Of a stretch of DNA of 64,000 nucleotides, positions 1,179-10,223 are shown piece by piece. The position numbers and the translations under genes are program-made. The stretch is from assembly GCA_902626385.1 (NCBI GenBank), contig CACOEZ010000001.1, positions 145,864 to 209,863 on the forward strand, read 5' to 3'. This DNA comes from an uncultured SAR86 cluster bacterium. GTDB taxonomy: Bacteria > Pseudomonadota > Gammaproteobacteria > Magnimaribacterales > D2472. The notes beneath the pieces were generated by a model. That model had not been told where the DNA came from and searched no databases. It saw only the letters and a program-made list of their open reading frames with translations. How positions within the stretch are numbered: position 1 is the stretch's first letter; each line of letters starts with the position of its first letter.

Positions 1179-1184
1179 TTATAA

Positions 1185-1235
1185 TGGTGCCCAGAGGTGG
1201 GATCGAACCACCGACACAAGGATTTTCAGTCCTTT
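1185..1235 (-). repeat. displaced 3' half of tRNA-Phe (att-type direct repeat, 51 bp, identical to 7316-7366)
   Basis: tggtgcccagaggtgggatcgaaccaccgacacaaggattttcagtccttt matches the intact tRNA-Phe gene exactly (tRNA nt 26-76 including CCA). Identity stops at 1236, so the D-arm and 5' acceptor are absent. Confidence 0.92.
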
Positions 1236-1279
1236 ACTCGAGAGTAAAAACCTCATAAGAATACATATTACAGACTCTT

Positions 1280-1335: not shown

Positions 1336-1857
1336 GTGAACAAACTATTATTATCAAGTTTTATTTTATTACCATCTTTTCTTTTTTCATCAGATTTAGA
1401 AGAACTTTTAACTTACGATGTTGGTGTAGAGAATCAATTATTATTTTCAAGACGATGTTCCGCTTTAAATTTCTATTTTGCCACTTTCATTCCTGATTTT
1501 GATCAAAAAGCAGAGGAGCATGGTTATTTTTTTAATACAATATCTTTTGGTTACTCTGCTTTAAATTATTATGAGAGTAGAGAAGACTATAAAAATGCAG
1601 ATGAAGATCGAATCACAAAAATAAGTCAACAGATTCAAATTGAAAATGATAAACATTACGATAAATATATTGATTTTTATGTTTCATTAACAAGGGATCG
1701 ACTTAAAGAAAATGATTTCACAGATGATGAAGATTTTGATGAAATATTGCCATCAATAATTATGAGTGACTATGACTTTTGTAATGCATTCTATCATTTT
1801 ATCCAAGAAGAGATTTATAAGTCTCCTGACGATTTGAGTAATCTTCGTGAACAGTAA
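1336..1857 (+). CDS. hypothetical secreted protein (N-terminal signal-peptide-like segment), island cargo
   Basis: GTG start. The hydrophobic N-terminus MNKLLLSSFILLPSFLFSS resembles a signal peptide, and the rest of the protein is acidic. I recognise no family. Its last ~22 codons are duplicated at 7196-7266. Confidence 0.45.
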   Translation: MNKLLLSSFILLPSFLFSSDLEELLTYDVGVENQLLFSRRCSALNFYFATFIPDFDQKAEEHGYFFNTISFGYSALNYYESREDYKNADEDRITKISQQIQIENDKHYDKYIDFYVSLTRDRLKENDFTDDEDFDEILPSIIMSDYDFCNAFYHFIQEEIYKSPDDLSNLREQ

Positions 1858-1861
1858 TTGA
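1791..1861 (+). repeat. 71-bp imperfect direct repeat, copy 1 (3' end of ORF 1336-1857)
   Basis: Aligns with 7196-7266 without gaps, with 5 mismatches in 71 positions (hand alignment). Confidence 0.85.
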
Positions 1862-1867
1862 AATAAC

Positions 1868-2260
1868 TTAATAACTATTATATTTCTTTAAGCATTCATT
1901 CATATCGATAAGGTAATTGTATTTTTCAAGACTTTTTTCAAAGAAGGGCATTATTCTGCTATAAAAGTATGCTCTTTTGCCCTTGATGTATTTTGTAGCA
2001 CCAAAGATAATCTCGTACTCTTCAAACATCACCTCAATGAGTCCAACATAACTCATGTGCATAACCACTGCTTCTGTAATAACTACTTTGGATCGAATAT
2101 GACGTTTGTTATTTTTCGATCTGAAATGCTCATGAATAAGGTTTTCCATTAGATCTGAGAAATGTTCTAGACTTTCTTTGACTTCAGCATTAATGATTTT
2201 TTCATGTTCTTTTGCTTCAGGATTTTGAAATTCACCAAAAATACTTACTACATTAGACAT
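1868..2260 (-). CDS. hypothetical protein, island cargo
   Basis: 130-aa ORF with no recognisable motif. Convergent with 1336-1857 and divergent from the MTase operon. Confidence 0.4.
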   Translation of the reverse strand: MSNVVSIFGEFQNPEAKEHEKIINAEVKESLEHFSDLMENLIHEHFRSKNNKRHIRSKVVITEAVVMHMSYVGLIEVMFEEYEIIFGATKYIKGKRAYFYSRIMPFFEKSLEKYNYLIDMNECLKKYNSY

Positions 2261-2385: not shown

Positions 2386-3135
2386 ATGGCAAAAAAAGAA
2401 TCAATTGCTTTGATCAAAGGCGATGCAATAAAAGAGTTAAAAAAAATAAAAGATGATTCAATAGATTTTGTTTTAACAGATCCGCCATATAATCTAGGAC
2501 TCTTCATGAAAAACAGAGCAACAAATCTTTCTGCTCTTCGTAAAAATCATTTCTCAGGTAAAGAATGGGACAATTTAGAAATCAATGATTGGAAAGAAAA
2601 TATGGAACAATTATTTTTTCAACTAGATAGGGTTTTAAAAGAAGGCGGCAATCTAATCGTCTTTATGGCAGTTATTAAAATAGAAACACTTATTAATATT
2701 GCTGAAAAGAACAATTTTTATTATAAAACTACTGGCATTTGGCATAAAAAAAATCCTATGCCAAGAAATAAAGATCTTCACTTTATAAATTCAAATGAGT
2801 GTTGGGCATATTTTGTAAATAATAAAAAAACTGGAACATTTAATAATAAAGGTAAAACAATTCATGATTTCTTTGAAACTGCATTAACTTCGTCTAAGGA
2901 AAAAGAGTTTGGTGGTCATCCAACTCAAAAACCGTTACCTTTGATGGACCATTTAATTCAAATTTTATCAAATAAAGGAGATACAATTCTTGATCCTTTT
3001 ATGGGGTCTGGATCCACTGGTGTTTCTGCTTCAAGACTGGGTAGAAATTTCATCGGAATCGAACTTAATGGCGATTATGTAAAAATTGCTAAGCAACGGT
3101 TAAAAAAGTCAAAACAATGTCAGTTAGATTTGTAG
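2386..3135 (+). CDS. beta-class DNA methyltransferase (N6-adenine or N4-cytosine; DPPY type, N6_N4_Mtase family)
   Basis: Catalytic motif IV LTDPPYNLG lies near the N-terminus (DPPY = nt 2479-2490). The AdoMet motif I region HPTQKPLPL...LDPFMGSGSTG lies near the C-terminus. The IV-before-I order defines the beta class. Confidence 0.9.
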   Translation: MAKKESIALIKGDAIKELKKIKDDSIDFVLTDPPYNLGLFMKNRATNLSALRKNHFSGKEWDNLEINDWKENMEQLFFQLDRVLKEGGNLIVFMAVIKIETLINIAEKNNFYYKTTGIWHKKNPMPRNKDLHFINSNECWAYFVNNKKTGTFNNKGKTIHDFFETALTSSKEKEFGGHPTQKPLPLMDHLIQILSNKGDTILDPFMGSGSTGVSASRLGRNFIGIELNGDYVKIAKQRLKKSKQCQLDL

Positions 3136-4166
3136 ATCTATTTTCTGGAGCAGGTGGTTTATCAAAAGGTCTCTGTGATGCCGGATTTGAGTTAGTTTAT
3201 GCAAACGAAATAGATAATTCTTTTTGTGAGACATTTGATAAAAATCATAATGTAAGAATAATAGACAATAGAGATATTAATATAATTAATATCAAAAAAG
3301 ACTTTCAAAAATTTTCTAAAATTGATCTTATTGTAGGAGGTCCACCATGCCAGGGATTTTCTCAAAAAGGAAGTCGAAAAGGACTTCTTGATGATAGAAA
3401 TTTTTTATTTAAAAAATTTGTAGAATTTGTTGAAATTTTAAAACCACAAGTTTTTTTAATGGAAAATGTTCCAAATTTATTAACTTCAAATAATGGTTTC
3501 TTTTTTAAAGAAATAAATAAGCATTTTAATAATATGGGTTATCAAGTTTCTAGCAAGGTTATGAATTGCTTTGACTATGGTATTCCTCAAACAAGAAGAA
3601 GGGCGATAATAATTGGTAACTTACTTTCTAAAGAATTTGAATTTCCTAAAAAGATTAAAAAAGTAGTTAGTGTTCACGAAGCAATCTCAGATCTTCCAAG
3701 ACTTCTTTCAGGAGAAGGTGATACTTTTCAAGAGTATGTAAAATCTTCTTTATCAGATTATCAAAAGATAATGAGAAAAGGATCAAAGGGTATTTATAAT
3801 CATGTATCAACGAAACATTCACCAGAAGCACTTGAGAGACTAAGTTTGATTCCACCATTTGGGGGAAAGTCTGACTTACCAAGTCAGTTAAGGACAAAAT
3901 CTATATATAGTGGAACGTGGGGTCGAATCGATCCAAATGGACCAGCAAGAACAATAACAACAAGATTTGACACACCCTCATCTGGTCAGTTTACTCTCAA
4001 TGATCAAGATAGATGTCTTACTGTTAGGGAAGCAGCAAGGATACAGTCATTTCCTGATAATTTTATTTTTTATGGAAATAAAACATCTCAAATGAAACAA
4101 GTAGGAAATGCTGTGCCGCCTTTGTTAGCAAAGCAGATTGGTCAGAAAATCTTAGAATTATTTTAA
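3117..4166 (+). CDS. DNA (cytosine-5)-methyltransferase
   Basis: Full set of C5-MTase motifs: I FVDLFSGAGG, IV GGPPCQGFS (catalytic Cys codon 3348-3350), VI ENVPNL, VIII QTRRR, X GNAVPPLL. The ATG lies 19 nt inside the upstream MTase gene. Confidence 0.93.
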   Translation: MSVRFVDLFSGAGGLSKGLCDAGFELVYANEIDNSFCETFDKNHNVRIIDNRDINIINIKKDFQKFSKIDLIVGGPPCQGFSQKGSRKGLLDDRNFLFKKFVEFVEILKPQVFLMENVPNLLTSNNGFFFKEINKHFNNMGYQVSSKVMNCFDYGIPQTRRRAIIIGNLLSKEFEFPKKIKKVVSVHEAISDLPRLLSGEGDTFQEYVKSSLSDYQKIMRKGSKGIYNHVSTKHSPEALERLSLIPPFGGKSDLPSQLRTKSIYSGTWGRIDPNGPARTITTRFDTPSSGQFTLNDQDRCLTVREAARIQSFPDNFIFYGNKTSQMKQVGNAVPPLLAKQIGQKILELF

Positions 4167-6743
4167 ATAATATTCAAAAAAACTTTTTGAGGAATAAAGC
4201 ATTTTCCTATATTCATCATAACTGCCTTCGTGAAAAATATTTTCTAATTTTATTACTTCATCAAATTTAGATACTTTCTCATTAATTTCCTCAAAGTACT
4301 CATGTTTTAATTTGATTTGTTTTTCATTCCAAGAAAGACATTCAATATTTTTTAATATGCTGAAATATCTTGTATCAAAGATATTATATTTTTCATCTTT
4401 AGCATTTGATTTAACAGATGAAATTAAAAATTTTTCTAATTCATATATATTTTTTGATCCTCTGTATTTAATAATGCTTTGAATAACTTCAGATACCTGA
4501 TCATGATTTCTAGCAAAGAAAACAAAATGTGCTAATTCAAATTTTGATAAAGTGCTTTCTTCACCTAAATTCTTTAACCCAACTAATATTTGATAGATGA
4601 AGATAACAGTGTAGAGAGTAAAAACAGAACCTTTGTTTGATGTGATGGTAGTAGCATGGCGATTTATTGGACTATGAATGTCATTCCAGAAATAAAGTTT
4701 TTCCATTTGATTTGAAATGATTTTATAAGTTTGGTTTGGTTCATTAAGAATTTTTTGGTACACATTAGTCCCTTTAAATGGACTATTTGTATCAATTAAT
4801 CCCAATAATTTTGAAAAAAATAATGCTCTAGTTCCTTCAATTTTTATACCGCTCTTTTCTGCGTCTCTTTTTAATGCTTTATCAAGATCTTTTAACCTAT
4901 CGTGGTTATTAACGTTTTCAAGATAATATTCGATTGCCCAAAGATGATCTTTGATGTCCTTTTTTTTCTTATCAACTTGCCAATATTCAGTAACCGAATT
5001 TTTCTTGTCTTGATCCGTCTTTGTGCTTTGATTTAAAAATTCACCGTAATCAAACCATTCTTCTTCGATTTCTGTTAAGTCTATTTCTTTTGATTTTTTT
5101 GCAACAATTGCTTGAAAAATATTTATAACTTCTTTTTCAAAAGTTACATGTTTTCCATCATTATCATAGTAATAAATATCTTTTTCTTCATCATATTCAA
5201 AATCACCTGGTTCCAAATTTAAACCATTAAGAATAATATCTGAAGTTCTATAATTACCAATAAAATCTAATACTTTAAGGTATTCTTTATCATCAGAAAG
5301 TCTTAGTCCTCTTCCAATTTGTTGAATAAATATCGTTAGGGAGTCAGTTGGTCTTAACATAAGAATTGTTGATACATCAGGTATATCAACTCCTTCGTTA
5401 AACATATTTACAGTAAAAGCAACTTCGTATTCGTCATTTCTAAATTTTTGAAGCAGTGTTTCTCTTTCTTCGTTTGAAAATCTACTCCTTGAAGTCTCAG
5501 ATTTCGAGTGAATTGCAACAGACTTTATTCCGTTATCATTAAAAACTTTTGCCATATAATTTGCATGTTCTATTGATGTACAAAATCCAATTGTTTTTTC
5601 TTTTTCAACTGATTCAAGTCTATATTTTGAGATAATTGACTTATCCCTTGACTCGATCATCAATTTTTTATTTAGATCATCAATATCATATCTATTTCCA
5701 TTCCATCTTATGTTTGAATAGTCAATGTCATCAAAGAACCCAATGTAATTTATGTCTGCTAAATAACCTTCTGCGACTGCTTGATCTTGATCCATTTGAT
5801 AAAAGATATTATCTCCAAAACTTGGAAGTATTTCTTTTTCATCCGTTCTAAATGGTGTAGCAGTTAGACCAAGCAAGAATTTTGGTTTGAAATAGTCTAA
5901 AACTTTTTGATAAGTCGGTGCAGCAGCGTGATGCGCTTCGTCAATTATTATGTAGTCAAAATAATTTGGAGTAAATTTTTCAAGCATTTGTTTTCTATGA
6001 AGACTTTGTATTGTTGCAAAGAAAATATTTTTACTCTCAAGATTAGAATTTTTTGACAGCATCTCCATTTCTCCAATTCTGTCTTTCATTAAATCTTCAA
6101 AATCATTTTTTGTCTTTCTAAGTATTTCCTCAACATGTGCAACAAATAAAACCTTTTTTGATTTAGAATTTTGAATATCGAATCCGCTTAGAAAAGTTTT
6201 TCCAAGTCCTGTTGCTAAAATTACAAGACCAGCATTTTTATTATTTGTCCTATTCTCATGAATTTTTTCTAGTGCTATTTTTTGGACTGGCGAGGGAGTT
6301 ATTTCTTGTGAATTTCTTCCAAGATATAAGTTATATAGATTTTTATCAGACTTGAAACATTTTCTTAGTTCAAATACTGCTTCATTTATAGAATCAACTT
6401 GATTTTTAGTAATTTCAAGATATTTATCAAAATTTTCTCTGATAAAATTATTTTTTCTTTGCAGTTCATCAAACCTATCTTTTTTATTTCTTACAAAGAT
6501 TCCAGTTTCGTCGTGACTGTGGAAACCATGTGTTTCTATTGCATATTTTTTATTAACTGTTGTTACTACAAAGTCAATTATAAAAACTCTACCAGATCCA
6601 TCTTCCCGCTCCATTTCAACCTGTGGTTCAATAAAATCAAGACCTTCTTCTCCATAATCTTTAAAAAAGACATTTCTAATAAAAGACTCTTCGAGATGAC
6701 CTAACTTACCTCTATACTTTGAAATATAATCTTCTAGTAACAC
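4158..6743 (-). CDS. fusion protein: Vsr/DUF559-like PD-(D/E)xK nuclease domain + SF2 DEAH helicase (ResIII/Helicase_C type) + ~330-aa uncharacterised C-terminal domain
   Basis: Helicase motifs: I ATGLGKT (nt 6195-6215), II DEAH (5931-5942), III LGLTATP, VI QQIGRGLR. The N-terminal segment VFIIDFVV-x10-YAIETHGFHSH resembles the Vsr/DUF559 core (xDF ... IExDGxxH). I recognise nothing in residues ~530-861. Confidence 0.8.
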   Translation of the reverse strand: MLLEDYISKYRGKLGHLEESFIRNVFFKDYGEEGLDFIEPQVEMEREDGSGRVFIIDFVVTTVNKKYAIETHGFHSHDETGIFVRNKKDRFDELQRKNNFIRENFDKYLEITKNQVDSINEAVFELRKCFKSDKNLYNLYLGRNSQEITPSPVQKIALEKIHENRTNNKNAGLVILATGLGKTFLSGFDIQNSKSKKVLFVAHVEEILRKTKNDFEDLMKDRIGEMEMLSKNSNLESKNIFFATIQSLHRKQMLEKFTPNYFDYIIIDEAHHAAAPTYQKVLDYFKPKFLLGLTATPFRTDEKEILPSFGDNIFYQMDQDQAVAEGYLADINYIGFFDDIDYSNIRWNGNRYDIDDLNKKLMIESRDKSIISKYRLESVEKEKTIGFCTSIEHANYMAKVFNDNGIKSVAIHSKSETSRSRFSNEERETLLQKFRNDEYEVAFTVNMFNEGVDIPDVSTILMLRPTDSLTIFIQQIGRGLRLSDDKEYLKVLDFIGNYRTSDIILNGLNLEPGDFEYDEEKDIYYYDNDGKHVTFEKEVINIFQAIVAKKSKEIDLTEIEEEWFDYGEFLNQSTKTDQDKKNSVTEYWQVDKKKKDIKDHLWAIEYYLENVNNHDRLKDLDKALKRDAEKSGIKIEGTRALFFSKLLGLIDTNSPFKGTNVYQKILNEPNQTYKIISNQMEKLYFWNDIHSPINRHATTITSNKGSVFTLYTVIFIYQILVGLKNLGEESTLSKFELAHFVFFARNHDQVSEVIQSIIKYRGSKNIYELEKFLISSVKSNAKDEKYNIFDTRYFSILKNIECLSWNEKQIKLKHEYFEEINEKVSKFDEVIKLENIFHEGSYDEYRKMLYSSKSFFEYYLK

Positions 6744-6812: not shown

Positions 6813-7211
6813 TTAGTTAATTGGTTTCTTAAGGTTTTCATTTTTTATAATCCAATTATTAAATATTTTTAAATCGCCTTTACAGATTTTTTGTAACTCG
6901 GCACTAGTTGTCCAGTCTTCCGCAGTAACCTTTTGCCAATAGATGCCTTTCCATGAACCAGACTTACAAAATACCACATCTCCAATTTTTATATTCTCAA
7001 TTGAACTAAATACCTCAAAGGGATTTTTACCAAGATCTTCCCAGGAACCATTAATTACATGTATTTGTGGTTTTTTATAAACATTAATTATTTTAATAAT
7101 GATTTGAAAAATATCCTTTATCCAATTCATAAAAATGAAAATTACATAAATCATCATTATCAATACAACTATTAATAAAATATTTTCAATCATCACTATG
7201 ATTTTATCCAA
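6813..7211 (-). CDS. small membrane-anchored hypothetical protein (one N-terminal TM helix), upstream of and co-oriented with the nuclease-helicase
   Basis: The hydrophobic segment IIVMIENILLIVVLIMMIYVIFIFM is followed by an ~85-aa soluble part. The tracked start is TTG (7211), and an in-frame ATG lies at 7193. The 5' end overlaps the 71-bp repeat. Confidence 0.4.
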   Translation of the reverse strand: MDKIIVMIENILLIVVLIMMIYVIFIFMNWIKDIFQIIIKIINVYKKPQIHVINGSWEDLGKNPFEVFSSIENIKIGDVVFCKSGSWKGIYWQKVTAEDWTTSAELQKICKGDLKIFNNWIIKNENLKKPIN

Positions 7212-7266
7212 GAAGAGATTTATAAGTCTACTGACGATCAGAGTAATATTCGTGAACAGTAATTGA
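7196..7266 (+). repeat. 71-bp imperfect direct repeat, copy 2 (orphan remnant of the 3' end of a 1336-1857-like gene)
   Basis: Reads in frame ...DFIQEEIYKSTDDQSNIREQ*, against ...HFIQEEIYKSPDDLSNLREQ* at 1791-1861. No upstream coding similarity remains. Confidence 0.85.
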
Positions 7267-7287: not shown

Positions 7288-7315
7288 TTTAGAGACTTGA
7301 AGAATGTTGTAACTA

Positions 7316-7391
7316 TGGTGCCCAGAGGTGGGATCGAACCACCGACACAAGGATTTTCAGTCCTTTGCTCTACCAACTGAGCTATCTGGGC
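7316..7391 (-). tRNA. tRNA-Phe (anticodon GAA), 76 nt with encoded CCA
   Basis: The reverse complement GCCCAGATAGCTCAGTTGGTAGAGCAAAGGACTGAAAATCCTTGTGTCGGTGGTTCGATCCCACCTCTGGGCACCA folds as a cloverleaf: 7-bp acceptor stem, GCTC/GAGC D stem, AAGGA/TCCTT anticodon stem with loop CTGAAAA, and GGTGG/CCACC T stem. It is very similar to E. coli tRNA-Phe. Confidence 0.97.
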
Positions 7392-7449: not shown

Positions 7450-10053
7450 TTAAGCACGAACTCTTTCGTTGTTAGGGTCATAAAGGGATCCTTTGCCAAC
7501 AATTTGAACAGTCATAGGATATAGACCATCTCCACCTTCATTAAAGTATTCGATAAGAAGTGACTTTCCTTGAATTGCAATCTCTTTTGGGAGATAGCCC
7601 ATAACAACAAATTTCTTAAGTGATGGACAATAGGACATTCCAGTTGTATAAGATCTTCTTCCTTTACTATCTATGGGTACTTCACCAGTTGCAGGATCAA
7701 TAATTGGTGAAATGCCAACAGGGTATCTTGTATTTCCAGATACATTGAGATCATCTAATGTCATTGTGCACAGAATTGCACATGGATCCTCATCTCTTTG
7801 TGAAAGATGAGCTGCTTTCCCATGGAAATCTGCTTCTTTAACAAGAGGCCTTTGAATAGCTGCTTCAATGGCAGTATATTCTGTTTCGAGATCCGCACCT
7901 TGAAGTCTAAAACTTTTCTCGAGCCTTCTACTATTGGCATATGTTTCAATGCCAACTGGAACTACACCAACCTCAAGCAATGAATCATATAAAGCCAAAC
8001 CATCTTCTTTATTATTATCAAAGTAAATTTCCCATCCACTTTCACCAACGTATGAGATTCTAGCCGCCCAAACATCAACTTTCTTTCCGCCTAATAAATT
8101 GAGTGTTAAATTTTTTGCAGTTACAAATGGGAAACTTTTAATATCAATTTCATTAGGATCGATAAAATTACCTAAGGCATTTACAGCCTTTGGTCCCCAT
8201 AATCCTATAGTTGCAATATCATGAGTTCTTATATTTATATCTGCGTCCAATCCATTATCGTCTCTATAATTTCTTAATGTAACCCAGTCACGATTTCCAT
8301 CAGCACCACCTGTTACAACTCTGTAACTATCAGCACCTAAACGTGAAATAGTAAGATCTGCATGAACTCCACCATCTTCATCTAGGAAGTTCGTATAAAT
8401 AACTTTACCCTCAGGAGTATTGCCACCAACCTTGGCTACTGATAAGTATTCCAGCATGCGTTCAGCATCTCGACCCTTTATATCCATTATTGGAAAGTGA
8501 GATAAATTAATCATGCCAACAGAATCACTCATTGCAAGATGTTCAGCATTAGCAACATCATATGGAACATGTCGGGTATCCCACTCGTTTTCTCGTAAAG
8601 GCACTTCTTTAAGATACTTTTCAAGCTTTTCTCTGTTGCTAATATATGCTAAAGCTCGTTCCCAACCAGCTACTTCGTTCTCAAAGTGTCCACCTAATTC
8701 TTTCTCTCTCTCATAGAATGGACTTACAAACATTTCTCTTTGAGTAATATAAGGTTCTCTAGGATGAACAGCAGGTGTATATATAGTTTGAGAGTTTTCA
8801 AATGCTCTTGTTTTAACAAACTCTTTTTCTTTTTGATGCGGATAGAACCTTGAGATGTCAAAAGAATGCATATCAACCTGAGTTTTACCATGTACCATTG
8901 CCTCAGCACATAGTCTGGCACAACCAGGACCATCTTTTACCCAAACAGCCTCACATAGCCAAAAACCTCTGACTTCAGGACTTTCACCAATCAAAGATCC
9001 TGCATCAGCTGTCACAGAAAGTAGTCCATTAAATGAACTTTTTTCATCCCATCCTAATTCGCTAAGAATCGGCGTAGTTTCAAAAGCTTTTTCTAGTGGC
9101 TCTGCTATTTCTTCTAGTTCTAAATATCTCATTGAATCTGATAACATAGTTTTGTCTGGATTACCTATATCTTCAGGATCGACAAGTCTAGGATTTTTGT
9201 CTTCATAAAAACCCCATTCGAGCATACCGCCATGAAATTTTCCTGTATCTCTAACGTAAGCAGAGTTGCCTTGGTCCCTTAGAAGAGGATACACAAGCAT
9301 CTCTTCAGTATCTTGAATTTTTTCGTATGGTCCAAAAAATAACAATGGATGCTCAACAGGCATTAATGGAACCCCGACACCTGCCATGTCGCCCATTAAA
9401 GGCCCCCAAATTCCTGAGGCAATAACAACTTTATTTGTTTTAATGGTTCCTCTATCAGTTTTCACTGCAACAATTTTCCCATTTTCTGTTTCAAATCCAG
9501 TAGCTGGAGTATTTGTAAATGTTTTTAAAGCGCCTTTGTCTTTTGCTGTTTCAACAGCAAAATTAACAACTTCTTGTGATCGCGGAACTACAAGGCCCGC
9601 ATCTGGATCCCACATAGCACCAATCATAGAATCCTCTTCAAGTAAGGGAAATTTTTCAACTGCTTCAGCTGCAGATATTAATCTTACGTTTGTGCCAAAT
9701 GCTTTTCCTGATGCAACTTTTCGCTTTAATTCTTCCCAGCGCTCATCATCACCTTTCCGGCAGATTTCTAACCCACCTTTTTTTAAAAAAAAGCCGTTAT
9801 CTTCGTAAAATTTTCTACTAAACGAAGTTGTCCAACAACCTAATTTGTCATGTGTAGTGTTATAAACAAAATCGGATGCATGAGCAGTTGATGCGATATC
9901 TGAGGGGATTATTGTTGATTTTTCTAAACCTACAATATTTTTTTGACCAAGTTCAGCCAACCAATAAGCAAGCATTGAGCCTACGATACCACCGACACCT
10001 ACAATTACTACATCTGCTTCTTCAGGAAATTTTGAGTTGGATTTATCTGACAT
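7450..10053 (-). CDS. FAD-dependent oxidoreductase fused to a GcvT-type folate-binding domain (dimethylglycine/sarcosine dehydrogenase family)
   Basis: FAD motif VVIVGVGGIVGSM at the N-terminus. The C-terminal aminomethyltransferase-like region includes YVGESGWEIY. I prefer the ATG at 10053 (MSDKSNS...) to the TTG at 10095 in the track. Confidence 0.85.
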   Translation of the reverse strand: MSDKSNSKFPEEADVVIVGVGGIVGSMLAYWLAELGQKNIVGLEKSTIIPSDIASTAHASDFVYNTTHDKLGCWTTSFSRKFYEDNGFFLKKGGLEICRKGDDERWEELKRKVASGKAFGTNVRLISAAEAVEKFPLLEEDSMIGAMWDPDAGLVVPRSQEVVNFAVETAKDKGALKTFTNTPATGFETENGKIVAVKTDRGTIKTNKVVIASGIWGPLMGDMAGVGVPLMPVEHPLLFFGPYEKIQDTEEMLVYPLLRDQGNSAYVRDTGKFHGGMLEWGFYEDKNPRLVDPEDIGNPDKTMLSDSMRYLELEEIAEPLEKAFETTPILSELGWDEKSSFNGLLSVTADAGSLIGESPEVRGFWLCEAVWVKDGPGCARLCAEAMVHGKTQVDMHSFDISRFYPHQKEKEFVKTRAFENSQTIYTPAVHPREPYITQREMFVSPFYEREKELGGHFENEVAGWERALAYISNREKLEKYLKEVPLRENEWDTRHVPYDVANAEHLAMSDSVGMINLSHFPIMDIKGRDAERMLEYLSVAKVGGNTPEGKVIYTNFLDEDGGVHADLTISRLGADSYRVVTGGADGNRDWVTLRNYRDDNGLDADINIRTHDIATIGLWGPKAVNALGNFIDPNEIDIKSFPFVTAKNLTLNLLGGKKVDVWAARISYVGESGWEIYFDNNKEDGLALYDSLLEVGVVPVGIETYANSRRLEKSFRLQGADLETEYTAIEAAIQRPLVKEADFHGKAAHLSQRDEDPCAILCTMTLDDLNVSGNTRYPVGISPIIDPATGEVPIDSKGRRSYTTGMSYCPSLKKFVVMGYLPKEIAIQGKSLLIEYFNEGGDGLYPMTVQIVGKGSLYDPNNERVRA

Positions 10054-10223
10054 AGTATCGAAATTAAACTCTATTTTTTTTACTTTGTAAATCAAAATAT
10101 TTATGGTTTTTGATAGGCAAAAATTTGATATTAATTTTCTATTTTAAAGAGAATTTTTTAAGAAAAAATTATTAATATTTTGACAATTTAATCTTTAAAA
10201 AAAACTAAAATTTAAGTTTAATT

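What the first reader, a model, noticed from the sequence alone, without database searches (positions are those of the whole stretch)
2386..6743. Candidate undescribed ATP-dependent restriction/defence module: two MTases of different chemistry plus a nuclease-helicase-unknown-domain fusion
Seen in the sequence. A 249-aa beta-class DPPY methyltransferase (2386-3135) overlaps by 19 nt a complete C5-cytosine methyltransferase (3117-4166). The 3' end of the C5 gene overlaps by 9 nt a convergent 861-aa ORF (4158-6743).

That ORF has three parts. The N-terminus looks like a Vsr/DUF559-type PD-(D/E)xK nuclease (IIDFVV...YAIETHGFHSH). The middle is an SF2 helicase with ATGLGKT, DEAH, TATP and QQIGRGLR motifs. 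The last ~330 aa are unrecognisable.

The combination does not fit the classical types as I know them:
- There is no HsdS and no gamma-class HsdM, so it is not Type I. The nuclease-N-terminal / helicase order is nonetheless HsdR-like.
- Type III Res proteins carry the nuclease C-terminally and pair with a single large Mod.
- I saw no DISARM or BREX markers (DUF1998, PLD, PglZ, Lon).
- SauUSI-type Type IV enzymes share the nuclease-helicase-recognition-domain layout, but they use a PLD nuclease and have no cognate MTases.

Three hypotheses:
(a) A new ATP-dependent R-M variant in which the C-terminal domain reads the unmethylated target.
(b) A modification-dependent translocating nuclease carried next to MTases whose marks it tolerates.
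(c) A Vsr-like repair nuclease-helicase associated with the C5 MTase, since Vsr normally accompanies Dcm.

Its location on a tRNA island supports a defence role.
Basis: partly seen in the sequence, partly recalled or inferred. Interest (0 to 1): 0.82.

Follow-up and report, generated by a model that had tools for sequence, protein, structure and literature searches.

The report
Motor-driven restriction enzyme with two methylases
This is a three-gene restriction-modification cassette on a small tRNA-Phe island: its cutting enzyme joins a nuclease, a SauUSI-type ATP motor and a DNA-reading domain borrowed from Type IIS restriction enzymes, and it travels with two methylases that probably each protect one strand; the family is conserved in many bacteria, and no experimental study of it turned up in the libraries searched here.

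Summary
All three ORFs, both overlaps (19 nt and 9 nt) and all catalytic motifs are present and intact.

The 861-aa protein has three parts:
- an N-terminal Vsr/DUF559/MTES_1575-type PD-(D/E)xK nuclease;
- an SF2 motor whose closest solved relative is the Type IV enzyme SauUSI;
It matches Nt.BspD6I and BpuJI by fold and Pfam RE_AlwI by sequence in 14 of 25 relatives.

In 42 of 44 related loci with 3' flank (a few are duplicate contigs), a C5 methylase lies beside or one gene away from the gene. Most of these also carry a second, adenine-type methylase. The reader domain co-diverges with the methylases while the motor does not.

The same reader domain, again next to a C5 methylase, also occurs fused to HNH nucleases and to McrB-like AAA+ NTPases. 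In the HNH locus a second, adenine-type methylase is present as well.

Best reading (confidence about 0.7): an ATP-dependent, Type IIS-like R-M system. It reads an unmethylated asymmetric site, and the two methylases protect one strand each. It is not Type I, III, ISP or IV.

It is a new variant of a known kind. Public databases name it only as a helicase, and I found no experimental study. The target sequence and the cleavage geometry remain unknown.

The parts
2386..3135 (+). Small beta-class DNA methylase (249 aa), probably N6-adenine (DPPY motif). Proposed to modify one strand of an asymmetric target.
   Evidence: PF01555 4.5e-45. PADLOC MTase_II 1.5e-61. Best solved relative is M1.HpyAVI (5hek/5hfj, m6A at GAGG), E 5e-32 (PMC5173035). 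A close homologue (53-74% identity) lies in the same cassette in about 24 related loci.
3117..4166 (+). C5-cytosine DNA methylase (349 aa). Proposed to modify the other strand.
   Evidence: PF00145 2.5e-80. TIGR00675 5e-71. All catalytic motifs present. Found beside or one gene from the R gene in 42 of 44 related loci that have 3' flank.
6324..6743 (-). R protein aa 1-140: PD-(D/E)xK nuclease of the Vsr/DUF559/MTES_1575 type.
   Evidence: 19/25 relatives hit PF18741, 11 hit DpnII, 6 hit DUF559. Invariant D57, E70, G73, H77, K97, N99. AF2 model pLDDT 88, alpha/beta core. Fold hits are weak (E 0.03-0.5), but many of the top ones are nucleases I know as PD-(D/E)xK: Bax1, R2 RLE, HincII, PvuRts1I, Can2, Cas4.
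5214..6323 (-). R protein aa 141-510: SF2 helicase-like ATPase (dsDNA motor), SauUSI-like.
   Evidence: ResIII 1.1e-40 and Helicase_C 1.2e-16. PADLOC mREase_IV 2e-68, covering the core only. PDB 7clg SauUSI 6.7e-64 with the single sequence and 1.1e-97 with the family profile. Motifs I, II, III and VI intact.
4161..5213 (-). R protein aa 511-861: sequence-recognition domain of the Type IIS (AlwI / Nt.BspD6I / BpuJI) kind. Stop codon at 4158-4160.
   Evidence: AF2 model pLDDT 83, pTM 0.83. Foldseek PDB hits: Nt.BspD6I E 2e-5, prob 1.0, about 300 columns; BpuJI recognition domain E 2-5e-4; next hit E>1. 14/25 relatives hit PF09491 RE_AlwI, best 3.3e-8, at profile positions ~20-130 of 441. Co-diverges with the methylases.
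7316..7391 (-). tRNA-Phe (GAA), the integration target of the island.
   Evidence: ARAGORN. Rfam RF00005, 72.9 bits.
1184..1239 (.). 56-nt direct repeat of the 3' part of tRNA-Phe (partner 7315-7370). Far boundary of the island.
   Evidence: 98% identical direct repeat, spacing 6131 nt.
1791..1861 (.). Left copy of a 71-nt direct repeat (the 3' end of ORF 1336-1857). Together with 7196-7266 it brackets the 5.4-kb cassette.
   Evidence: 93% identical, spacing 5405 nt. Homology is confined to this stretch.
7196..7266 (.). Right copy of the 71-nt repeat. It encodes a relic of the last ~19 codons of an ORF173-like gene.
   Evidence: Translates to ...DFIQEEIYKSTDDQSNIREQ*, against ORF173's ...HFIQEEIYKSPDDLSNLREQ*.
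1868..2260 (-). 130-aa ORF of unknown function. It is island cargo, not part of the conserved module.
   Evidence: No Pfam, PADLOC or NCBIfam hit. Found only in the near-identical contig L087.
6813..7211 (-). 132-aa ORF of unknown function. It is island cargo, not part of the conserved module.
   Evidence: No family hit. Found only in L087.

Best explanation
This is an ATP-dependent, Type IIS-like restriction-modification system made of three genes.

Shown:
- The R protein is a single chain: PD-(D/E)xK nuclease, then a SauUSI-type SF2 motor, then a Type IIS-type DNA-recognition domain.
- It is inherited as a unit with a C5-cytosine methylase and a second, adenine-type methylase.
- The reader domain co-diverges with the methylases.

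Inferred:
- The C-terminal domain binds a short asymmetric sequence when it is unmethylated.
- Binding licenses the motor, which hydrolyses ATP and moves the enzyme along the duplex, as SauUSI and Type ISP enzymes do.
- The N-terminal nuclease has one active site per chain. It makes double-strand breaks away from the site, when two enzymes meet or dimerise.
- The host is protected because each methylase modifies one strand of the asymmetric site (m5C on one, probably m6A on the other). Every daughter duplex therefore keeps one mark after replication.

The cassette is mobile: here it sits in a repeat-bounded island at tRNA-Phe.
For: - Domain identities: motor; nuclease; reader.
- Synteny: in 42 of 44 related loci with 3' flank, a C5 methylase is beside or one gene from the R gene. 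The loci come from Pelagibacter-like, Saccharibacteria, Paceibacterota, Pseudomonadales and many metagenome lineages, in unrelated surroundings. About 38 of them (roughly 33 by sequence match, the rest by Pfam) also show a second methylase: a small beta N6_N4 type, an HTH-fused or ~550-aa N6_N4 type, or a gamma N6_Mtase/Eco57I type. The other two loci (L113, L118) have N6_N4 methylases.
- Co-divergence: reader identity tracks C5-methylase identity (Spearman 0.83, n=38). The motor meanwhile stays near 50%.
- The same reader domain sits N-terminal in 419-448-aa HNH fusions; one of these is convergent with a C5 plus gamma-N6 methylase pair (L128). It also sits N-terminal in McrB-like AAA_5 fusions; one of these is preceded by a C5 methylase closely related to the window's and followed by an unidentified 375-aa ORF that I take, from its position only, to be McrC-like.
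- The small methylase's best solved relative is M1.HpyAVI. That enzyme works with an m5C partner on the asymmetric site GAGG/CCTC (PMC5173035).
- Two methylases for one asymmetric site is the established Type IIS pattern, e.g. HgaI, cited in PMC12898733.
- All catalytic motifs are intact.
Against: - There is no experiment on any member. The target sequence, the methylated bases, ATP dependence and cleavage position are all unknown.
- The nuclease assignment rests on sub-threshold Pfam hits in relatives and on weak fold matches.
- The third catalytic-motif position (ExK) is H, D or N rather than K. A clade of co-directional variants shows no detectable N-terminal nuclease.
- The motor's nearest characterised relative is a methyl-directed enzyme.
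- The loci are not phylogenetically independent, so the correlation is descriptive and not a test.
- REBASE could not be searched.
Confidence: 0.7

Rival explanations
1. Same R-M system, but the SF2 domain is a molecular switch, not a stepping translocase. A short ATP burst would release the enzyme into 1D diffusion (as in Type III) or activate cleavage near the site (as in CglI). Cleavage would then occur at a fixed distance from the site instead of at distant collision points.
For: CglI/NgoAVII cut 6-7 nt from an asymmetric site in an NTP-dependent way, and Type III motors act as switches (PMC5737866). AlwI/BspD6I-type readers normally position a nuclease a few bp from the site. Nothing or 14 distinguishes a stepping motor from a switch.
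Against: The motor is much closer to SauUSI (profile E 1e-97) than to Type III Res (PADLOC REase_III 1e-8). SauUSI is reported to translocate and to cut away from its sites (PMC7913695; bioRxiv 10.1101/2025.10.16.682607). Both strands appear to be methylated, so the Type III rationale for site-orientation dependence is absent.
Confidence: 0.17
2. A modification-dependent (Type IV-like) translocating nuclease that attacks foreign methylated DNA. It would simply be carried next to methylases whose marks it tolerates.
For: The motor core's best PADLOC model is mREase_IV and its best structure is SauUSI.
Against: - The methyl-reading SRA/DUF3427 domain and the PLD nuclease of SauUSI are both absent.
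- Near-obligate linkage to methylases and co-divergence with them has no rationale for a Type IV enzyme.
- The same reader next to a C5 methylase recurs with HNH and McrB-like engines, and the HNH locus also carries an adenine-type methylase.
Confidence: 0.07
3. A Vsr-like repair or maintenance nuclease-helicase serving the C5 methylase (T:G mismatch processing). Alternatively, a decayed or non-nucleolytic helicase retained with orphan methylases.
For: The nuclease domain belongs to the Vsr/DUF559 clan. Vsr classically accompanies Dcm (established knowledge).
Against: - The best matches are to REase-type members (MTES_1575, DpnII), not to Vsr itself.
- The protein carries a sequence-specific Type IIS reader and a restriction-type motor.
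- An adenine methylase is equally conserved.
- The genes are convergent and overlapping, as in Type II R-M cassettes.
- All motifs are intact, and the cassette is horizontally mobile.
Confidence: 0.04

Closest known systems
SauUSI (Type IV ATP-dependent restriction enzyme, PDB 7clg)
   Same: Single chain with the order nuclease, SF2 motor, C-terminal target reader. The motor is clearly homologous (E 6.7e-64 single sequence; 1.1e-97 family profile).
   Different: - SauUSI has a PLD nuclease and an SRA/DUF3427 5mC reader joined by a long helical coupler, and it has no methylases (PMC7913695).
CglI / NgoAVII (ATP-dependent Type II-like restriction enzymes)
   Same: NTP-dependent cleavage directed by a Type II-style reader of an asymmetric site (GCCGC), an SF2 helicase-like ATPase, and separate Type II methylase(s) (PMC5737866, PMC4267654). 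This is the closest functional precedent.
   Different: - CglI is two proteins: R (PLD nuclease plus B3-like reader) and H (ATPase).
- Here everything is one chain, with an unrelated nuclease fold, an unrelated reader fold and a different motor lineage.
- I ran no direct comparison with H.CglI or R.CglI. They do not appear among the family and PDB matches.
Type IIS enzymes of the AlwI / Nt.BstNBI / Nt.BspD6I family, and BpuJI
   Same: The recognition-domain fold (Foldseek prob 1.0) and the Pfam RE_AlwI match in relatives. Pairing with two strand-specific methylases is typical of Type IIS systems.
   Different: Those enzymes are ATP-independent and carry their own C-terminal catalytic domain.
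Type ISP enzymes (LlaGI, LlaBIII)
   Same: Single chain with an N-terminal PD-(D/E)xK-type nuclease, an SF2 motor and an asymmetric target. The motor is detectably related (E ~1e-11).
   Different: Type ISP enzymes contain the methylase and TRD in the same chain and methylate one strand only (PMC4666363). Here the methylases are separate Type II enzymes of two chemistries.
LlaJI-like McrB-type NTP-dependent R-M systems, and HNH Type IIS enzymes (MnlI/HpyAVI-like)
   Same: Proteins carrying the same reader domain, fused to AAA_5 (McrB-like) or to HNH, sit next to a related C5 methylase. The HNH locus also has an adenine methylase.
   Different: The cleavage engine differs. The identity of these relatives with LlaJI or MnlI themselves was not tested; those names come from memory.

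Membership tests
Type I R-M (HsdR) | HsdR acts with gamma-class HsdM and a specificity subunit HsdS encoded nearby | tested here: not met
   No HsdS or HsdM among the ORFs of 1-7.3 kb. The ORFs beyond are metabolic, judged by eye from the translations and not scanned. NCBIfam EcoAI HsdR scores 153.9 bits against a cut-off of 550.
Type III R-M (Res/Mod) | Res has the helicase N-terminal and the PD-(D/E)xK nuclease C-terminal, and works with one large Mod that methylates one strand | tested here: not met
   The nuclease is N-terminal. There are two small separate methylases of different chemistry. PADLOC REase_III gives only 1e-8 over part of the motor.
Type ISP R-M | Nuclease, motor, methylase and TRD in one polypeptide | tested here: not met
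   The 861-aa protein has no methylase domain. The methylases are separate genes.
Type IV SauUSI family | SauUSI-type SF2 motor | tested here: met
   7clg E 6.7e-64 / 1.1e-97. PADLOC mREase_IV 2e-68, covering aa 141-509 only.
Type IV SauUSI family | N-terminal PLD nuclease and C-terminal SRA/DUF3427 5mC reader; no cognate methylase | tested here: not met
   No PLD or DUF3427 hit. The C-terminal model does not match 7clg but matches Nt.BspD6I and BpuJI. Methylases are always linked.
Type IIS AlwI / Nt.BspD6I family | AlwI-type N-terminal recognition domain | tested here: met
   Foldseek E 2e-5, prob 1.0. RE_AlwI hit in 14/25 relatives, above Pfam's cut-off in several. The window protein alone gives no Pfam hit.
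Type IIS AlwI / Nt.BspD6I family | AlwI-type C-terminal catalytic domain; ATP-independent single-domain cleavage | tested here: not met
Only profile positions ~20-130 of 441 are matched.
CglI / NgoAVII | Separate R (PLD nuclease plus B3 reader) and H/N (SF2 ATPase) subunits | tested here: not met
   Single chain. No PLD or B3 domain found. No extra conserved gene in the cassette.
BREX / DISARM / Druantia | Marker genes (PglZ, BrxC, DrmA/DUF1998, DrmB, DruA-E) | tested here: not met
   The only PADLOC hits to these systems are generic methylase models (DrmMII, DruM) and a marginal BrxHI/BrxHII match to the motor (E 0.0076, no passing stretch). No neighbouring ORF matches.
Classical R-M system (functional definition) | The nuclease cuts the unmodified site that the cognate methylases protect | not testable with these tools
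   Only indirect support: synteny and co-divergence.

The most novel reading that the evidence does not exclude
This would be the founding member of an uncharacterised class of single-chain ATP-dependent restriction enzymes. A Type IIS sequence reader licenses a SauUSI-type translocating nuclease, and self-protection comes from full two-strand hetero-methylation (m5C plus m6A) by separate Type II methylases. One reader, kept beside a related C5 methylase (and in the HNH case the full methylase pair), has been recombined in nature with three different cleavage engines: HNH, McrB-like AAA+ (probably with a McrC-like partner), and SF2 plus PD-(D/E)xK.
Probability: 0.5. Interest if true: 0.65.

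Novelty: new variant of a known kind. Interest (0 to 1): 0.55.

Why it matters
- It fills a gap between Type IIS, Type ISP, Type IV (SauUSI) and CglI-like enzymes, and shows that the SauUSI motor is a chassis also used for classical, methylase-protected restriction.
- It offers a natural experiment. The same reader, next to a related C5 methylase (and in one case the whole methylase pair), is coupled to three different cleavage engines. That lets one ask what an ATP motor adds to a Type IIS enzyme.
- Defence-system finders currently see only 'a SauUSI-like helicase plus two Type II methylases'. PADLOC 2.0.0 has no full-length model, so such loci are likely to be mis-scored as Type IV plus orphan methylases.
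- The host appears to be a streamlined marine bacterium: the window's G+C is about 30% and Pelagibacter-like relatives exist. Active R-M systems there are of ecological interest.

Tried and rejected
- Sequence-profile searches of the PDB with the C-terminal domain and the N-terminal domain gave nothing significant.
- Foldseek on the N-terminal model gave only weak nuclease hits (E >= 0.03). They are used as supporting evidence only.
- The genome-contig scan chose motor-core patterns, so it mostly returned SauUSI-like helicases. Only L003-L007 were informative, and I rescanned with the C-terminal alignment.
- Promoter and terminator scans did not differ from shuffled sequence in this AT-rich DNA.
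- Rfam found only the tRNA.
- Attempts to name the source genome through exact-protein look-up failed.
- Literature searches found no paper describing this architecture. I could not establish whether H. pylori HP0052 (HpyAVIP) belongs to this family or to the HNH relatives.
- Target-sequence prediction from methylase similarity was judged unreliable. By eye the match to M1.HpyAVI is moderate (114 bits over ~215 residues; no percent identity was computed), so it was not pursued.
- ORF130 and ORF132 were tested as possible fourth and fifth components and rejected: they are not conserved.

Full report
**1. Observation**

They overlap by 19 nt and 9 nt.

- Pfam assigns the first to N6_N4_Mtase (4.5e-45) and the second to the C5 DNA methylase family (2.5e-80).
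- The translations show the beta-class motif order (DPPY before FMGSGSTG) and the full C5 motif set (FSGAGG, GPPCQGFS, ENV, QTRRR, GNAVPP).
- The 861-aa protein has ResIII plus Helicase_C, with ATGLGKT, DEAH, TATP and QQIGRGLR.
- Nothing is truncated or frameshifted. The lengths match those of relatives.

**2. The motor**

- PADLOC's best model for the 861-aa protein is the SauUSI-type 'mREase_IV' (2e-68). It covers only aa 141-509 of the query and positions 214-572 of a 953-position model.
- The best solved structure is SauUSI itself (7clg): E 6.7e-64 with the single sequence and 1.1e-97 with a 38-sequence family profile.
- Type I HsdR (3h1t), RadD and XPB follow far behind.
- NCBIfam's EcoAI HsdR model scores 154 bits against a cut-off of 550.

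So the motor is a SauUSI-lineage SF2 ATPase, and neither end of the protein is SauUSI-like.

**3. The N-terminus**

- The window protein alone gives no Pfam hit. Of 25 aligned relatives, 19 hit MTES_1575, 11 hit DpnII and 6 hit DUF559.
- The alignment shows the DUF559-like signature (I-D-F ... Y-A-I-E-x-[DHN]-G-x-x-x-H), with D57, E70, G73, H77, K97 and N99 invariant.
- The AlphaFold model is confident (pLDDT 88).
- Its fold matches are individually weak (E 0.03-0.5), but many of the top ones are nucleases I know as PD-(D/E)xK: Bax1, the R2 restriction-like endonuclease, HincII, PvuRts1I, Can2, Cas4.

**4. The C-terminus**

This is the main new result.

- A 25-sequence alignment of aa 510-861 gave a good model (pLDDT 83, pTM 0.83).
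- Foldseek against the PDB returned exactly two groups with E < 1e-3. One is the nicking enzyme Nt.BspD6I, an AlwI/BstNBI-family member (E 2e-5, probability 1.0, about 300 aligned columns). The other is the DNA-recognition domain of the Type IIS enzyme BpuJI (E 2-5e-4). The next hit has E > 1.
- Independently, 14 of the 25 C-terminal segments hit Pfam RE_AlwI (best 3.3e-8). In full-length relatives the match lies at aa ~690-780 against profile positions ~20-130 of 441, which is the N-terminal part of AlwI, and it exceeds Pfam's gathering score in several.
- A profile search of 1.84 billion representative proteins found only 190 hits. They comprise about 15-20 clusters of full-length ~850-aa proteins, fragments, and proteins in which the same domain is N-terminal.
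- Of those I scanned, the 600-870-aa ones carry an AAA_5 (McrB-like) NTPase and the 419-448-aa ones an HNH nuclease.

**5. Gene neighbourhood**

I examined relatives fetched by exact-protein look-up and by scanning metagenome and viral contigs with the C-terminal alignment. I then searched all six-frame ORFs of 48 loci with the window's proteins.

- Of 44 loci with any DNA 3' of the R gene, 42 have a C5 methylase beside or one gene from it. The other two (L113, L118) have N6_N4 methylases. A few of the 44 are duplicate contigs (for example L087 = L001 and L125 = L120), so about 39-41 are distinct.
- About 38 loci also show a second methylase (roughly 33 by sequence match, the rest from Pfam annotation). 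It is usually a 245-270-aa beta enzyme like the window's. In other loci it is HTH-fused (L099), a ~550-aa N6_N4 form (L004, L119, L120, L124), or a gamma-class N6_Mtase/Eco57I type (L085, L114, L116).
- Gene order varies (R> <C5 <N6; R> <N6 <C5; R> N6> C5>), and so do the surroundings: RNA polymerase genes, glycosyltransferases, conjugation genes, a 2-oxoglutarate dehydrogenase operon. The three genes therefore move as a unit.
- The two small flanking ORFs in the window (130 and 132 aa) are not conserved.

**6. Co-divergence**

- Across loci, identity of the reader domain to the window's tracks identity of the C5 methylase (Spearman 0.83, n=38) and of the small methylase (0.67, n=24).
The motor stays at about 50% throughout.
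- The loci are not independent samples, so this is descriptive. It is nevertheless what is expected if the C-terminal domain and the methylases share a target.

**7. The same reader with other engines**

- An AAA_5 fusion (P0178) is preceded by a C5 methylase whose last 96 residues match the window's at 4e-32. It is followed by a 375-aa ORF that I did not identify; from its position after a McrB-like gene I take it to be McrC-like.

**8. Clues to the target**

- The small methylase's best solved relative is M1.HpyAVI (5hek/5hfj, E 5e-32).
- M1.HpyAVI methylates adenine in GAGG. It belongs to a Type II system with a second methylase and a putative restriction enzyme (PMC5173035).
- From my own knowledge, the partner is an m5C enzyme acting on CCTC, and the system is a MnlI isoschizomer whose REase is HNH-type. 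These points were not tested here.
- The similarity is too low to transfer specificity. It does show the same logic: an asymmetric short site, with m6A on one strand and m5C on the other.

**9. Mechanism**

Shown: the domain composition, intact motifs, obligate linkage and co-divergence.

Inferred from SauUSI (PMC7913695; bioRxiv 10.1101/2025.10.16.682607), Type ISP (PMC4666363) and CglI (PMC5737866):
- the motor is activated and translocates;
- two nuclease domains must come together for a double-strand break.

Whether cleavage is distant (collision) or near the site (switch) cannot be decided from sequence, so I keep the switch model as the main rival.

A Type IV reading is unlikely. The methyl-reading SRA domain is replaced by a reader typical of enzymes that cut unmethylated DNA, and methylase linkage would be pointless. 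A Vsr-type repair role is unlikely for the reasons given under the rival explanations.

**10. Mobile context**

- tRNA-Phe lies at 7316-7391 (-).
- Its 3' 56 nt are repeated at 1184-1239 (98% identical), bounding a 6.1-kb island.
- Inside the island, a 71-nt direct repeat (1791-1861 and 7196-7266, 93% identical) brackets the 5.4-kb segment that carries the cassette.
- The right copy encodes a relic of the C-terminus of the 173-aa ORF that ends in the left copy.
- No integrase is present.
- G+C is about 27-29% in the cassette against 31-38% to the right.

**11. Comparison with known systems, and novelty**

- The system fails defining features of Type I, III, ISP and IV, of CglI/NgoAVII and of the AlwI family, while sharing modules with several of them (see the membership table).
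- Public databases name the protein only 'superfamily II DNA or RNA helicase' or 'DEAD/DEAH box helicase family protein'.
- PADLOC 2.0.0 has no full-length model.
- Seven literature searches found no description.
- A 2008 survey did note that REBASE holds putative Type II REases with DEXD helicase domains (PMC2441816), and REBASE could not be queried here.

I therefore rate the finding a new variant of a known kind: restriction-modification, ATP-dependent, Type IIS-like. It is real and conserved, and no experimental study of it turned up. It is of solid but not exceptional interest.

Noticed in passing
window 1184-1239 and 7315-7370; 1791-1861 and 7196-7266: Two nested pairs of direct repeats. 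A 56-nt copy of the 3' part of tRNA-Phe bounds a 6.1-kb island. A 71-nt repeat, which is the 3' end of ORF 1336-1857 plus a relic copy next to the tRNA, brackets the 5.4-kb R-M segment. There is no integrase in the island. This suggests successive insertions or recombination at this tRNA.
   Followed up: partly
P0176, P0178, P0180, P0195, P0203; L126 299-2188: The same Type IIS-like reader domain occurs N-terminal to McrB-like AAA_5 NTPases. In L126 the gene is preceded by a C5 methylase closely related to the window's and followed by an unidentified 375-aa ORF that may be McrC-like.
   Followed up: partly
P0164, P0169; L128 612-6870: The reader domain is also fused to HNH nucleases (419-448 aa). 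In L128 the 448-aa HNH fusion follows a 473-aa ORF with only a faint HNH_2 match, and both are convergent with a C5 methylase and a 721-aa gamma-class (Eco57I/MmeI-type) methylase. This looks like an ordinary Type IIS system with the same specificity set, possibly with two R subunits.
   Followed up: partly
L099 8082-9146 (also L100, L101): In one clade the N6_N4 methylase of the cassette carries an N-terminal HTH_3 domain (3.6e-13). It may be a built-in controller for delayed R expression. The window's cassette has no such domain and no C protein.
   Followed up: no
L004, L119, L120, L124, L125 (R genes ~820-840 aa): A co-directional clade (R> N6(~550 aa)> C5>), partly on IMG/VR viral contigs. 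It keeps the motor and reader but has no detectable N-terminal nuclease by phmmer or Pfam. The first ~120 aa are unassigned.
   Followed up: partly
L006 7998-11652 (Poribacteria MAG); also L010, L013, L012, L052, L057: These relatives align with the window protein from aa 1 or ~45 through the motor (tblastn). Only L006 was looked at further: phmmer detected only its motor, its C-terminus is different (an HNH_repeat DNA-binding module), and it is followed by a single N6_N4 methylase. The motor may therefore be a chassis for several readers.
   Followed up: partly
L085 9549-10070: In the gamma-methylase variant an extra 173-aa ORF with no Pfam hit lies between the R gene and the C5 methylase.
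   Followed up: no
window 7450-10095: An 881-aa ORF beyond the tRNA looks by eye like a fusion of an FAD-dependent oxidoreductase with an aminomethyltransferase-type domain (dimethylglycine or sarcosine dehydrogenase-like); it was not scanned. It is followed by ORFs that look MutY-like and phosphoglycerate mutase-like. This is ordinary core-genome context, consistent with a low-G+C marine alphaproteobacterium.
   Followed up: no
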